From contig CAKPOF010000002.1 in the NCBI GenBank assembly GCA_934169725.1, positions 73,986-137,985 on the forward strand: DNA of 64,000 nt, in the 5' to 3' direction. This document shows positions 22,080-23,630 of this stretch, piece after piece. Source of the DNA: an uncultured Clostridia bacterium (GTDB taxonomy: Bacteria; Bacillota; Clostridia; TANB77; CAG-508). The notes beneath the pieces are model-generated. The model was not told where the DNA came from. It did no database searches and was given only the letters and a program-made list of their open reading frames with translations. The position numbers and the translations under genes are program-made. The stretch's first letter is position 1, and each line of letters begins with the position of its first letter.

Positions 22080-22928
22080 ATGAGAACATTGGAAATGAAA
22101 ATCGCAATTTCTGAAGTAAAAGGTGGACGGTGTGTATCAACAGAAATGAAGGATGGCTACATTCTGGCAAAATTCGAAATTGAGGAAGAAACAGAAAAAA
22201 TTGAGGAAGAAACAGAAAAAATTGAGGAAGAAACAGAAAAAAATGAGGAAGAAACAGAAAAAAATGAAACTTCTTCTATTTTTGAAAGCGAACTGGAGTG
22301 CAGGATAGATCCGAACCTTTTTGCAGGTGAATGGCTAAATCATCAGCCAACTACATGGAGACAAAAAGAAACACTGAATCTATATCTGGATGCAAAGGCT
22401 AAAGGCAGGCTACATGCTTTTACTTGTATGACAATTGATCCGTCTGATAAAGATGGAAAGTTGGTATATCAGAAAGGTCTGGAAATAAAATCAGGATTTT
22501 CTCAGAAACAATGGGAAAAGATGCTGAAAGAATACAATCCAAGTCGTAATAGTCGACAGATGACTAGAACGGAGTATGCATGTAGAAACCTATTTCTTAT
22601 TCAGAGGCTTGTGGAGTCTGGTTATGAAATCAAAGAAGCATGGAGAGCAGTATGTGATGATTCCGGAAAAATTGGTCATTATCGTAATTTTGATAATATT
22701 AAATATTATTTTGAACCAACAGGTAGCCGAGAAGTTTGTGGATTTTGCGATTTGGGTAATGCTTGGAAGTTCATTGCAAACGATCCATGGGATTTAGCTG
22801 TTGGTTTTTGGGCCGCTGGTGGTACCTATAATGGCTATGGCAACTTCGGTCCTGTGGCTGACCTACGTCGCAACCGCTATGAAGACGCTCGCTACAATAA
22901 TGGTGTTGGTATGCTTGCGCTTGATTAA
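22080..22928 (+). CDS. Candidate DGR target (variable) protein; GC-rich, with a VR-like C-terminus
   Basis: RBS aaggagg; the 3' 120 nt is rich in xAC/xGC codons (acc tat aat ggc tat ggc aac ttc ... cgc aac cgc tat gaa gac gct cgc tac aat aat ggt) encoding ...GGTYNGYGNFGPVADLRRNRYEDARYNNGVG; followed by a hairpin, avd and an RT. Confidence 0.6.
   Translation: MRTLEMKIAISEVKGGRCVSTEMKDGYILAKFEIEEETEKIEEETEKIEEETEKNEEETEKNETSSIFESELECRIDPNLFAGEWLNHQPTTWRQKETLNLYLDAKAKGRLHAFTCMTIDPSDKDGKLVYQKGLEIKSGFSQKQWEKMLKEYNPSRNSRQMTRTEYACRNLFLIQRLVESGYEIKEAWRAVCDDSGKIGHYRNFDNIKYYFEPTGSREVCGFCDLGNAWKFIANDPWDLAVGFWAAGGTYNGYGNFGPVADLRRNRYEDARYNNGVGMLALD
22179..22262 (+). repeat. Four tandem 21-bp coding repeats (EEETEKI) within the target gene
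   Basis: attgaggaagaaacagaaaaa three times, then aatgaggaagaaacagaaaaa. Confidence 0.9.
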
Positions 22929-22959
22929 AGTAGCACTGACCACTGTATTTTCAAGAACG

Positions 22960-22988
22960 AGATGGAATCTGCTTTGTGGGTTCCATCT
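22960..22988 (+). other. Stem-loop immediately 3' of the VR-like region (position of a DGR IMH-associated hairpin)
   Basis: agatggaatc tgctttgtg ggttccatct. Confidence 0.5.
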
Positions 22989-23017
22989 TTAAAATTTATA
23001 GAAAGAAAGAGAACAAA

Positions 23018-23377
23018 ATGGAAAGAAAAATTAATAAATTGATTATCATACCAAAAATAGAGAAATATATAGAATACATGCTAACGATATTAATAAAACT
23101 ACCTAGAACTGAAAAGTTCAGTATTGGAACAGAAATAAAAACTAGTATGTATGAAATGCTAAAATATACATTATTTGCAAGTAAAATAGATAAAAGAAAA
23201 AGATTAGAAATTTATAATATTGTAGATGGCCATATATACTATCAAAGAATTTGTATAAGGATAATGTATAATAATAAATGGATTGATATGAAGAAATATA
23301 GTAATGAATTATTAGATGAAATTGGTAAAATATTAGGTGGATTAATAAAATCTTTGGGAGTGATGAAAGATGCCTAA
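23018..23377 (+). CDS. avd: DGR accessory variability determinant (Avd)-like four-helix-bundle protein
   Basis: About 120 aa, basic; IIPKIEKYIEYMLTILIKLPRTEKFSIGTEIKTSMYEM and ELLDEIGKILGGLIKSL parallel the bAvd helices; overlaps the RT start. Confidence 0.6.
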   Translation: MERKINKLIIIPKIEKYIEYMLTILIKLPRTEKFSIGTEIKTSMYEMLKYTLFASKIDKRKRLEIYNIVDGHIYYQRICIRIMYNNKWIDMKKYSNELLDEIGKILGGLIKSLGVMKDA

Positions 23378-23630
23378 AACTATAAGAAATGTATATGAAC
23401 AAGCAATTTCATTTGAAAAGTTAGTAATGGCACACAAAAAGGCAAGGAGAGGAAAAAGAGAAAAGAAAGAAGTTATTTTATTTGAGCTTAATTTGGAAAG
23501 TGAAATATTGAAAATAGAGAAAGATTTACGTGAAGGAAAATATAAGCCAGAAAAATATAAAACATTTAAAATATATGAGCCTAAAGAAAGAATTATAAAG
23601 GCTTGGTTGGAAGTAATAGTATTGAAATAA
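23370..23630 (+). pseudogene. DGR-type reverse transcriptase, N-terminal 86 aa only (truncated)
   Basis: YEQAISFEKLVMAHKKARRGKREKKEVILFELNLESEILKIEKDLREGKYKPEKYKTFKIYEPKERII matches the DGR RT N-terminus; the reading frame ends before the APFRDRVVHHA finger motif. Confidence 0.7.

What the first reader, a model, noticed from the sequence alone, without database searches (positions are those of the whole stretch)
22080..23630. Remnant of a diversity-generating retroelement: target gene with a VR-like 3' end, hairpin, avd, and an RT truncated after about 85 aa
Gene order is target (22080-22928), then a stem-loop (22960-22988), then an Avd-like four-helix-bundle gene (23018-23377), then an ORF overlapping avd's stop that encodes a canonical DGR reverse-transcriptase N-terminus (…KKARRGKREKKEVILFELNLE…KYKTFKIYEPKERII). 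That ORF stops before the fingers/palm motifs, so the RT is truncated. I could not find a template repeat in the window. With a dead RT the cassette is presumably fossilised, which would freeze whatever the last diversified VR sequence was. DGRs are uncommon in Clostridia-like AT-rich genomes, and this locus records one arriving and decaying.
Basis: partly seen in the sequence, partly recalled or inferred. Interest (0 to 1): 0.75.

Follow-up and report, generated by a model that had tools for sequence, protein, structure and literature searches.

The report
Dead diversity-generating retroelement with frozen target
This is a broken copy of a known bacterial "targeted hypermutation" cassette: a deletion removed most of its reverse transcriptase and its template, so the once-variable tip of its target protein is now fixed in every strain sampled. 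It is real, but it is an ordinary kind of decay.

Summary
Window 21962-23603 is the 5' part of a DGR cassette:
- a promoter-like site;
- a target gene (22080-22928) with a C-type-lectin/FGE fold and a C-terminal variable region (VR, 22795-22921);
- a clade-conserved 15-nt motif and a hairpin (22959-22989);
- an intact avd (23018-23377);
- the first 78 codons of a DGR reverse transcriptase (23370-23603).

Homology to every intact relative stops at 23603/23604. There the sequence is fused to the 3' part of an nrtR-like gene.

In the closest intact relative (L014, 92% RT identity) the RT is 337 aa. Its template repeat (TR) lies directly 3' of the RT, so one deletion explains the loss of both the catalytic domain and the TR.

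The window VR differs from that TR at 20 of 41 adenines and 7 of 86 other bases (p = 5e-7). It was therefore once diversified.

The VR is now identical in all 9 protein variants of the target (about 61 contigs), while the rest of the gene varies. The identical junction occurs in all eight conspecific loci fetched.

The claim that DGRs are rare in Clostridia is not: Firmicutes are DGR-enriched, and decayed copies are frequent in this clade. Interest is low to moderate.

The parts
21962..22079 (+). Conserved 5' leader of the target module, with a promoter-like site TTGCTA-17-TATAAT at 21978-22006. This is the left edge of cassette homology.
   Evidence: Homology to cassettes in four unrelated contexts (L003, L005, L006, L014) begins at 21962-21973, at 83-94% identity. 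It is the best promoter-like match in the region, 10 of 12.
22080..22928 (+). DGR target (variable-protein) gene, 282 aa. It has a small N-terminal domain, an acidic 7-aa repeat linker and a C-type-lectin/FGE-fold domain (residues 71-282).
   Evidence: 104 homologues were found. Their alignment shows a conserved body and a hypervariable C-terminus. The AF2 model has pLDDT 94.8. Top Foldseek hits are TaqVP 5vf4, TvpA 2y3c, FGE and Mtd 1yu0.
22177..22267 (+). 21-bp tandem repeat, 4.3 copies, encoding EEETEK(I/N). Copy number varies between strains.
   Evidence: TRF. Conspecific variants carry 2, 3 or 4 copies.
22795..22921 (+). Variable region (VR), now frozen.
   Evidence: Against the TR of L014, 20 of 41 adenine positions and 7 of 86 other positions differ, Fisher p = 5.3e-7. 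The VR is 100% identical in L001 and L002. The VR is invariant at protein level in 9 variants.
22931..22945 (+). 15-nt motif TAGCACTGACCACTG, just 3' of the stop codon. It is a candidate extension of the IMH (target-recognition) element of this clade.
   Evidence: Found with at most 2 mismatches after 22 distinct VR flanks, including lineages whose targets do not align at DNA level. It is absent after the TR of L014.
22959..22989 (+). Inverted repeat / hairpin downstream of the VR.
   Evidence: On 7 sequences 96.9% of cells are paired, with 3 compensatory pairs. More distant lineages carry unrelated stem sequences at the same position. The simple scan does not call it a terminator.
23018..23377 (+). 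avd (accessory variability determinant), intact ORF of 119 aa. In the window lineage it carries a 2-codon in-frame deletion and S71G relative to other strains.
   Evidence: Pfam bAvd 60.3 bits, above its cut-off of 40. PHROG Avd. 93% identical to the L014 Avd.
23370..23603 (+). 5' fragment of the DGR reverse transcriptase, codons 1-78 of 337. It comprises the N-terminal extension and ends at the start of the RVT_1 domain.
   Evidence: 92% identical to L014 RT residues 1-78. In the full-length relative RVT_1 spans residues 73-273. Aligns to bRT residues 2-78. PHROG RT, E = 2e-20.
23603..23605 (.). Deletion / illegitimate-recombination junction.
   Evidence: Alignments to more than 30 intact cassettes all end at 23596-23604. 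The same junction occurs in all eight conspecific loci fetched, from several samples and sources.
23605..24055 (+). 3' fragment of an nrtR-like gene: the tail of the Nudix domain plus the winged-helix domain. About 100 N-terminal codons are missing. The RT frame runs 8 codons into it, to a stop at 23630.
   Evidence: Pfam NrtR_WHD 77.7 bits. NCBIfam NtrR profile positions 131-224 of 245. Alignment to full-length homologues of 216-245 aa.
20574..21866 (-). IS30-like transposase gene, immediately left of the cassette remnant (context).
   Evidence: Pfam HTH_38 and a weak rve match. Present at this site in all conspecific contigs.

Best explanation
This is a dead diversity-generating retroelement (DGR).

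How intact relatives work. The gene order is target(VR) - motif/hairpin - avd - RT - TR. The RT-Avd complex reverse-transcribes TR RNA and misincorporates opposite adenines. The cDNA then replaces the VR at the 3' end of a C-type-lectin-fold target gene. The sequences just 3' of the VR direct this homing.

What happened here. One deletion or illegitimate recombination joined RT codon 78 to the middle of an nrtR-like gene. It removed the RT fingers, palm and thumb (codons 79-337) and the TR that lies directly 3' of the RT. With neither enzyme nor template, mutagenic homing stopped and the last VR sequence was frozen. The remnant was then inherited vertically. Later events were an IS3 insertion 2.2 kb downstream, slippage in a 21-bp repeat, a 2-codon deletion in avd and a few substitutions.

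Shown: the identity of each part, the breakpoint, the absence of a TR and of the rest of the RT from the window, the adenine signature of the VR, and VR invariance across strains.

Inferred: that a single event did it, that the cassette arrived on a conjugative element, and that no intact DGR elsewhere in the genome acts on this VR.
For: - Avd is confirmed by profiles.
- The RT fragment's only credible PDB match is 8ub7_A, whose sequence is BPP-1 brt. The full-length relative scores far higher to bRT than to group II or retron RTs.
- The intact relative L014 has a 337-aa RT, with the TR at 9021-9147 directly after the RT stop, and 17 of 19 TR/VR mismatches at A.
- Most close relatives share this architecture and the adenine bias, for example 17/17, 14/14 and 24/25.
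- Window homology to all cassettes ends at 23602-23604. Downstream lies a 5'-truncated nrtR-like gene.
- No TR and no other RT sequence is present in the window.
- The window VR against the L014 TR: 20 of 41 A and 7 of 86 non-A positions differ, p = 5e-7.
- The target has the C-type-lectin fold.
- The VR is invariant in 9 protein variants on about 61 contigs, and identical at DNA level in the two loci checked by BLAST (L001, L002), while the gene body and the repeat vary.
- The identical junction occurs in all eight conspecific loci fetched, and the exact 86-aa product is on 70 contigs.
- The IS3 is absent from L094 and L095, so the truncation predates it.
Against: - Only 64 kb of the genome was visible, so an intact DGR elsewhere, able to act in trans, cannot be excluded directly.
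- The pre-deletion ancestor was not found, so 'one deletion' is an inference. The nrtR-like gene is not next to any intact cassette among the fetched loci.
- The target and avd ORFs are still open in every variant, which would also fit continued use.
- The two lineages differ at 22795-22796, which are the first two TR-aligned adenine positions of the VR. This is a small oddity.
Confidence: 0.9

Rival explanations
1. The target is still diversified, in trans, by an intact DGR (RT + TR) elsewhere in the same genome. The local RT stub would then be irrelevant.
For: The cis elements are intact: the VR end, the 15-nt motif and the hairpin. Orphan target units without an adjacent avd/RT exist in related genomes, and their VRs are adenine-diversified. 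DGRs with remote targets are known (PMC5758913).
Against: VR amino acids 240-282 are identical in all 9 variants, on about 61 contigs from different samples, while other parts of the gene vary. Nothing in the 64-kb window supplies an RT or a TR.
Confidence: 0.05
2. Domesticated fixed lectin. Loss of the RT and TR locked in a useful VR variant, and the target (perhaps with Avd) is now kept by selection as an ordinary gene.
For: The target and avd ORFs are open in all variants. The promoter-like site and the ribosome-binding site are retained.
Against: In one lineage the target body has 5 nonsynonymous and 0 synonymous changes. In the other, avd has a substitution plus a 2-codon deletion. This looks like relaxed constraint, not purifying selection. 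So few mutations have occurred that open ORFs are expected by chance anyway.
Confidence: 0.12
3. The truncation is an assembly or sequencing artefact, or the RT is completed by recoding or a second exon.
For: None beyond the general possibility. Metagenome assemblies do break at repeats.
Against: The same junction and the same 86-aa product occur in all eight conspecific loci fetched, from ENA and Logan assemblies of several samples, and the exact product is on 70 contigs. No sequence encoding RT residues 79-337 exists in the window in any frame.
Confidence: 0.01
4. The RT stub belongs to a group II intron or a retron, and its position next to avd is coincidental.
For: A separate short fragment similar to the 3' end of group II intron ltrA lies at about 24369-24493. 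NCBIfam, which returned no DGR-RT family, ranks the group II model first for the full-length relative, at 134 bits against a cut-off of 300.
Against: The stub is 92% identical to an RT that sits in a complete cassette with an adenine-biased TR/VR pair. The PDB ranking is bRT far above group II, which is above retron. The 8-nt avd/RT overlap matches intact cassettes. No intron or retron RNA family is found in 19000-30000.
Confidence: 0.01

Closest known systems
Intact DGR cassette in uncultured Clostridia MAG MGBC107341 (CAOSZT010000012.1; locus L014)
   Same: The parts and their order are the same. Nucleotide identity is about 88% from the target leader to RT codon 78. Avd is 93% and RT residues 1-78 are 92% identical. 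The 15-nt motif, the hairpin and the 8-nt avd/RT overlap are shared.
   Different: L014 has the full 337-aa RT and a TR directly 3' of it, with 17 of 19 mismatches at A. It sits on a conjugative element that carries a sortase, a TED/SpaA adhesin, a SpoVG-like gene and a TraG/VirD4 coupling protein. The window copy lacks RT codons 79-337 and the TR. It lies in a chromosomal junk island between yunB and rpsI/rplM.
Bordetella phage BPP-1 DGR (mtd-avd-TR-brt)
   Same: A CLec-fold target with a C-terminal VR, an inverted repeat 3' of the VR, an Avd, and an RT whose N-terminal extension aligns residue for residue (2-78) with the window fragment (PMC5758913).
   Different: In BPP-1 the TR lies between avd and brt. 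In this clade it lies 3' of the RT. BPP-1 is a phage and diversifies a tail-fibre tip. Here the vehicle of the intact relatives is a conjugative element, and I saw no N-terminal hydrophobic stretch in the target that would suggest a signal peptide (my own reading of the sequence; no predictor was run). The window copy is inactive.
Legionella pneumophila ICE-borne DGR (target LdtA)
   Same: A cellular DGR carried on an integrative conjugative element, with a CLec-type target and a hairpin needed for efficient homing (PMC5758913).
   Different: LdtA is an exported lipoprotein. The target here has no lipobox or signal sequence that I could see by eye. There is no detectable sequence relationship beyond the fold.
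DGR variable proteins TaqVP (5vf4) and TvpA (2y3c), and formylglycine-generating enzyme
   Same: Best structural matches of the modelled target domain, at probability 0.99-1.00.
   Different: Sequence identity is only 8-16%, and no PDB or Pfam sequence match exists. TMq is 0.39-0.56, so the resemblance is the shared fold only, not close relationship.

Membership tests
Diversity-generating retroelement (DGR) | The reverse transcriptase belongs to the DGR RT lineage. | tested here: met
   Residues 1-78 align to bRT 2-78, the only credible PDB hit. They are 92% identical to the L014 RT, which scores 164.6 bits to bRT and 73 bits to the best group II RT. L014 contains LGNYTSQ; that [ILV]GxxxSQ is a DGR hallmark is from my own knowledge.
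Diversity-generating retroelement (DGR) | The RT is intact, with catalytic fingers, palm and thumb. | tested here: not met
   The ORF is RT-derived only to residue 78. In the relative, RVT_1 spans residues 73-273. No other RT sequence is in the window.
Diversity-generating retroelement (DGR) | A template repeat (TR) is paired with the VR, with mismatches at TR adenines. | tested here: not met
   There is no TR in the 64-kb window. By proxy, the window VR against the TR of relative L014 differs at 20 of 41 A and 7 of 86 non-A positions, p = 5e-7. A TR therefore existed. The rest of the genome could not be searched.
Diversity-generating retroelement (DGR) | An accessory variability determinant (Avd) is present. 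| tested here: met
   Pfam bAvd 60.3 bits, above its cut-off of 40. PHROG 'Avd protein of DGR', 5e-14. NCBIfam 65 bits, below its equivalog cut-off of 80.
Diversity-generating retroelement (DGR) | The target protein has a C-terminal VR displayed on a C-type-lectin/FGE fold. | tested here: met
   Model pLDDT 94.8. Matches TaqVP, TvpA, FGE and Mtd. Family variation is concentrated in the last ~45 residues, and there at TR-A positions.
Diversity-generating retroelement (DGR) | An IMH-type element and an inverted repeat lie 3' of the VR and are absent from the TR. | tested here: met
   The 15-nt motif is conserved after VRs and absent after the L014 TR. The hairpin has compensatory changes. Function in homing cannot be tested here, and a terminator role is not excluded.
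Diversity-generating retroelement (DGR) | The VR is being diversified now. | tested here: not met
   The VR is identical in 9 protein variants on about 61 contigs, and identical at DNA level in L001 and L002.
Group II intron | A full-length group II reverse transcriptase/maturase protein together with the ribozyme RNA domains. | tested here: not met
   No Rfam match in 19000-30000 at E <= 0.1. The relative's RT scores 134 bits against a cut-off of 300 for TIGR04416. Only an unrelated 70-125-bp ltrA-like scrap is present, at about 24369-24493.
Retron | A retron-clade RT with an adjacent msr/msd non-coding RNA. | tested here: not met
   Retron RTs score 22-33 bits, against 164.6 bits for bRT. 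No retron RNA family was found.

The most novel reading that the evidence does not exclude
The locus may be a dormant target and not merely a fossil. Its promoter, open target ORF, VR end, clade-specific 15-nt motif and hairpin are all intact. Intact DGRs of the same clade travel on conjugative elements in related gut Clostridia. An incoming element with a compatible TR (the L014 TR is 79% identical to this VR) could therefore restart diversification of this chromosomal gene in trans. The excess of changes confined to the remnant (about 12 events in 1.45 kb, none in 5.3 kb of flanks) might reflect exchange with such incoming cassettes.
Probability: 0.1. Interest if true: 0.5.

Novelty: new member of a known kind. 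Interest (0 to 1): 0.25.

Why it matters
The value is mainly as annotation. An 86-aa "hypothetical protein", an avd and a 282-aa orphan gene can now be explained as one decayed DGR, and the breakpoint is mapped to within one or two bases.

There is some wider use:
- It is a natural example of a VR frozen in a whole population. That gives a zero-activity baseline for methods that score DGR activity from metagenomic SNVs.
- Comparison with relatives defines this clade's architecture, with the TR directly 3' of the RT.
- The same comparison reveals a conserved 15-nt post-VR motif that could be tested as a target-recognition element.

It does not change what is known about DGR mechanism or distribution.

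Tried and rejected
- **TR search.** Low-stringency blastn of 22700-23020 against the whole window found only chance matches of 35 nt or less, so there is no TR.
- **Protein search with the 86-aa fragment.** It returned only short proteins of 150 aa or less, so it says nothing about truncation frequency. I used a genome scan instead.
- **Pfam and NCBIfam on the RT stub and on the target.** No hits.
- **NCBIfam on the full-length relative RT.** No DGR-RT family was returned, and the group II model came first but far below its cut-off.
- **First AlphaFold run, 21 sequences.** Poor: pLDDT 59, with the VR region below 50. I discarded it and repeated with 101 sequences.
- **Profile search of the target family against PDB sequences.** Nothing found.
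- **tblastn of the target against phages.** Nothing found.
- **DNA downstream of the junction.** No match in phages. Among plasmids, only a 70-125-bp group II ltrA-like scrap matched.
- **Downstream ORFs against all cassette-bearing loci.** No hits, so the nrtR-like gene is not a usual neighbour of this cassette.
- **Rfam on 19000-30000.** Nothing found.
- **IS30 inverted repeats.** No convincing pair and no second copy in the window, so the IS ends were not defined.
- **DGR-type mutagenesis as the cause of the strain differences in the target body.** Considered and rejected. The changes are mostly G/A transitions outside the VR.
- **A terminator-only reading of the hairpin.** Not excluded, but the simple scan does not call it a terminator in the window.
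Full report
**1. The observation**

- The target ORF 22080-22928 (282 aa) follows an AGGAGG ribosome-binding site. The best promoter-like site in the region, TTGCTA-17-TATAAT, lies at 21978-22006.
- avd (23018-23377) scores 60.3 bits on Pfam bAvd, above its cut-off of 40. It matches PHROG 'Avd protein of DGR' at E = 5e-14. It falls below the stricter NCBIfam equivalog cut-off, 65 against 80 bits.
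- The next ORF (23370-23630) overlaps the avd stop by 8 nt, exactly as in intact relatives.

**2. Is the RT fragment a DGR RT?**

- Against all PDB sequences the 86-aa product has one credible match, 8ub7_A, residues 2-78 against 2-78, E = 1e-7. The other four matches have E >= 0.3.
- That stretch of 8ub7_A is 100% identical to brt of Bordetella phage BPP-1.
- tblastn against phage genomes hits only annotated RT genes, 32-43% identical, in 12 records that include Bacillus phage BalMu-1, Vibrio phage VP585, ANMV-1 and Faecalibacterium phage Lagaffe. From my own knowledge, several of these phages carry DGRs.
- A pattern scan of one genome per species found 182 relatives, and the 80 kept are mostly in Clostridia and Bacilli MAGs. 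The closest, L014 (uncultured Clostridia MGBC107341), is 92% identical over residues 1-78 and continues to 337 aa.
- The full-length L014 protein scores 164.6 bits to bRT, 73 bits to the best group II intron RT and 33 bits to a retron RT. Its RVT_1 domain covers residues 73-273.
- The window fragment is therefore the N-terminal extension of a DGR RT (subdomain naming from 10.1101/2023.10.23.563531). It ends just as the fingers begin.

**3. What an intact cassette of this clade looks like**

- L014 has, in order: a target gene with its VR (7421-7547), a hairpin, avd, the RT (8001-9014) and the TR (9021-9147). The TR starts seven bases after the RT stop.
- Of 19 TR/VR mismatches, 17 are at TR adenines.
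- In the close clade with a 337-aa RT, most loci with enough flank show the same layout and adenine bias. Examples are 17/17, 14/14 and 24/25.
- Because the TR lies 3' of the RT, any deletion that removes the 3' part of the RT and runs onward also removes the TR.

**4. The breakpoint**

- Alignments of the window to more than 30 cassettes all end at 23596-23604. Base by base, identity to L014 and six others stops after ...ATAAAGGCT(T) at 23603/23604.
- From there the sequence encodes the C-terminal part of an NrtR-like regulator. It matches Pfam NrtR_WHD at 77.7 bits and NCBIfam profile positions 131-224 of 245.
- Alignment with full-length homologues of 216-245 aa shows that about 100 N-terminal residues, the core of the Nudix domain, are missing.
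- Both genes are therefore cut at one junction. The last eight RT-ORF codons (WLEVIVLK*) are nrtR-like DNA read out of frame.
- tblastn with the full-length RT finds nothing beyond residues 1-78 in the window. No TR-like copy of the VR exists in the window either.
- The junction is not an assembly artefact. The same arrangement occurs in all eight conspecific loci fetched, from ENA and Logan assemblies of several samples. The exact 86-aa product is recorded on 70 contigs.

**5. The target and its VR**

- The 104 homologues share a well conserved body and a hypervariable C-terminus of the form GGxYxxxxxxxPVADLxHxxxVDxxxxxGVGMLALD.
- The family has no Pfam, PHROG or PDB sequence match.
- With a 101-sequence alignment, AlphaFold models residues 71-282 at pLDDT 94.8 and pTM 0.92.
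- Foldseek's best PDB matches are the DGR variable proteins TaqVP and TvpA, formylglycine-generating enzymes and Mtd. This is the C-type-lectin fold used by most DGR targets.
- In register with the L014 TR, the window VR (22795-22921) differs at 20 of 41 adenine positions and at 7 of 86 other positions, Fisher p = 5.3e-7.
- VRs of other homologues show the same bias. Several of the non-A differences are shared among them, so they probably reflect divergence between TRs.
- The VR was therefore written by adenine mutagenesis from a TR that is now lost.

**6. Is it frozen?**

- The 90%-identity cluster of the target holds nine distinct proteins on about 61 contigs.
- They differ in the number of a 7-aa EEETEK(I/N) repeat (2-4 copies). 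They also differ at seven positions in the body.
- Residues 240-282, the whole VR, are identical in all nine.
- The VR DNA is 100% identical in L001 and L002. The multi-locus alignment shows no differences within 22797-22928 in any of the eight conspecific loci.
- The IS3 element at 25872-27015 is absent from L094 and L095, which nevertheless carry the same RT junction. The truncation is therefore older than that insertion.
- This is what a cassette with no enzyme and no template predicts. It argues against rescue in trans by another DGR.

**7. Cis elements**

- Directly after the stop codon lies TAGCACTGACCACTG (22931-22945). This motif follows the VR in 22 distinct cassettes with at most two mismatches. 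These include lineages whose target genes do not align with this one at DNA level. It is absent after the L014 TR.
- Thirteen bases further on is the hairpin 22959-22989.
- On seven related sequences 96.9% of cells pair, three pairs change on both sides, and slid controls reach only 35-50%.
- More distant lineages have unrelated stem sequences at the same place.
- This fits the IMH plus inverted-repeat arrangement that marks the recipient VR in characterised DGRs (PMC5758913).
- In some lineages the stem is followed by a T-run, so a terminator role is also possible. In the window the simple scan does not call it a terminator.

**8. Context and origin**

- The remnant lies in an island between yunB (19506-20204) and rpsI/rplM (called genes).
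- The island holds only debris:
  - an IS30-like transposase gene (20574-21866, minus strand);
  - the cassette remnant;
  - the nrtR-like fragment;
  - a 70-125-bp scrap resembling the 3' end of group II intron ltrA (about 24369-24493);
  - NT5C-like fragments;
  - an IS3.
- The intact relative L014 is flanked by a sortase, a thioester/SpaA-fold LPXTG adhesin, a SpoVG-like gene and a TraG/VirD4 coupling protein. Other homologues sit next to ArdA, DUF3560 or SSB genes. Arrival on a conjugative element is therefore the likeliest origin, but this is an inference.
- The higher G+C of the target (38%; VR 50%) against avd/RT (22-26%) is a property of the whole clade. L014 shows the same mosaic. It says nothing about this locus's own history.

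**9. How unusual is it?**

- Firmicutes are among the phyla holding about 80% of curated DGRs (PMC5758913). They are significantly enriched for DGRs in metagenomes, and the human gut is among the DGR-enriched environments (PMC8144416).
- Within this clade alone, other decayed copies turned up without searching for them:
  - L015: RT of 310 aa, no TR;
  - L041: RT of 205 aa;
  - L044: RT of 236 aa;
  - L046: RT of 305 aa;
  - L091: RT broken, apparently by a frameshift;
  - L009: target fused to avd with RT fragments;
  - orphan target-hairpin units in L003, L005 and L006.
- A truncated DGR in a Clostridia-like genome is therefore expected, not surprising.

**10. Loose end**

- Among conspecific contigs, 5.3 kb of flanking DNA shows no differences at all. 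This comprises sipL and yunB (17942-20740) and the junk at 23294-25818.
- The 1.45 kb from 21849 to 23293 carries about a dozen events:
  - five nonsynonymous and no synonymous changes in the target body in one lineage;
  - S71G plus a 2-codon deletion in avd in the window lineage;
  - repeat copy-number changes;
  - two non-coding substitutions.
- The spectrum is mostly G/A transitions outside the VR, so it is not DGR mutagenesis.
- A recombination import or local instability could explain the cluster. I could not decide between them.

**Verdict**

The locus is a new example of a well-known kind of element in a well-known state of decay.

Noticed in passing
window 22931-22945; also L003, L005, L009, L014, L015, L017-L020, L027, L034 and others: The 15-nt motif TAGCACTGACCACTG sits immediately after the VR stop codon in 22 distinct cassettes, with at most 2 mismatches. 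These include lineages with unrelated target genes. The motif is absent after the TR. It may be this DGR clade's target-recognition (IMH-extension) signal.
   Followed up: partly
window 21849-23293, compared with flanks 17942-20740 and 23294-25818 (loci L001, L002, L094-L099): Differences between strains are confined to the DGR remnant: about 12 events in 1.45 kb and none in 5.3 kb of flanks. They include 5 nonsynonymous and 0 synonymous changes in the target body. The pattern is not adenine-specific, and the cause is unresolved (a recombination import or local instability).
   Followed up: partly
window 22177-22267: A 21-bp tandem repeat (4.3 copies) encodes EEETEK(I/N) in the linker of the target protein. 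Conspecific strains have 2, 3 or 4 copies, and more distant homologues have one or none.
   Followed up: yes
L003 5504-6507; L005 5888-6866; L006 5889-6846: Orphan units of promoter, target, VR, motif and hairpin occur in unrelated contexts with no avd or RT beside them (after spoIIIAH; in an ArdA/DUF3560 element; near sortase and SSB genes). Their edges coincide with the promoter and the hairpin. Their VRs are still adenine-diversified relative to the L014 TR.
   Followed up: partly
window ~24369-24493 (within ORF 24347-24673): A short fragment is 74-84% identical to the 3' end of group II intron ltrA genes of Clostridium plasmids. It is a second RT remnant, unrelated to the DGR one. No intron RNA domain was detected by Rfam.
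   Followed up: partly
window 25872-27015: An IS3-family element (an HTH_Tnp_1 ORF plus an rve ORF) is present in the window, L001, L002 and L097 but absent from L094 and L095. The insertion is therefore polymorphic and younger than the RT truncation.
   Followed up: yes
L014 2179-6658 and 11601-12446: The closest intact cassette lies on a conjugative element carrying a sortase, a thioester-domain/SpaA-fold LPXTG adhesin, a SpoVG-like gene and a TraG/VirD4 coupling protein. By eye I saw no signal peptide on the DGR target, so what it binds is unclear.
   Followed up: partly
window 22290-23603; L014 6781-9147: The cassette has a composition mosaic: target body 38-40% G+C, VR and TR 43-50%, avd and RT 20-26%. 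The intact relative shows the same pattern, so it is a clade feature. It suggests that the target module and the avd-RT module have different histories.
   Followed up: partly
window 24058-24426 and 25201-25632: The same junk island holds fragmented ORFs with weak similarity to 5'(3')-deoxyribonucleotidase (NT5C). They are probably further pseudogene pieces.
   Followed up: no
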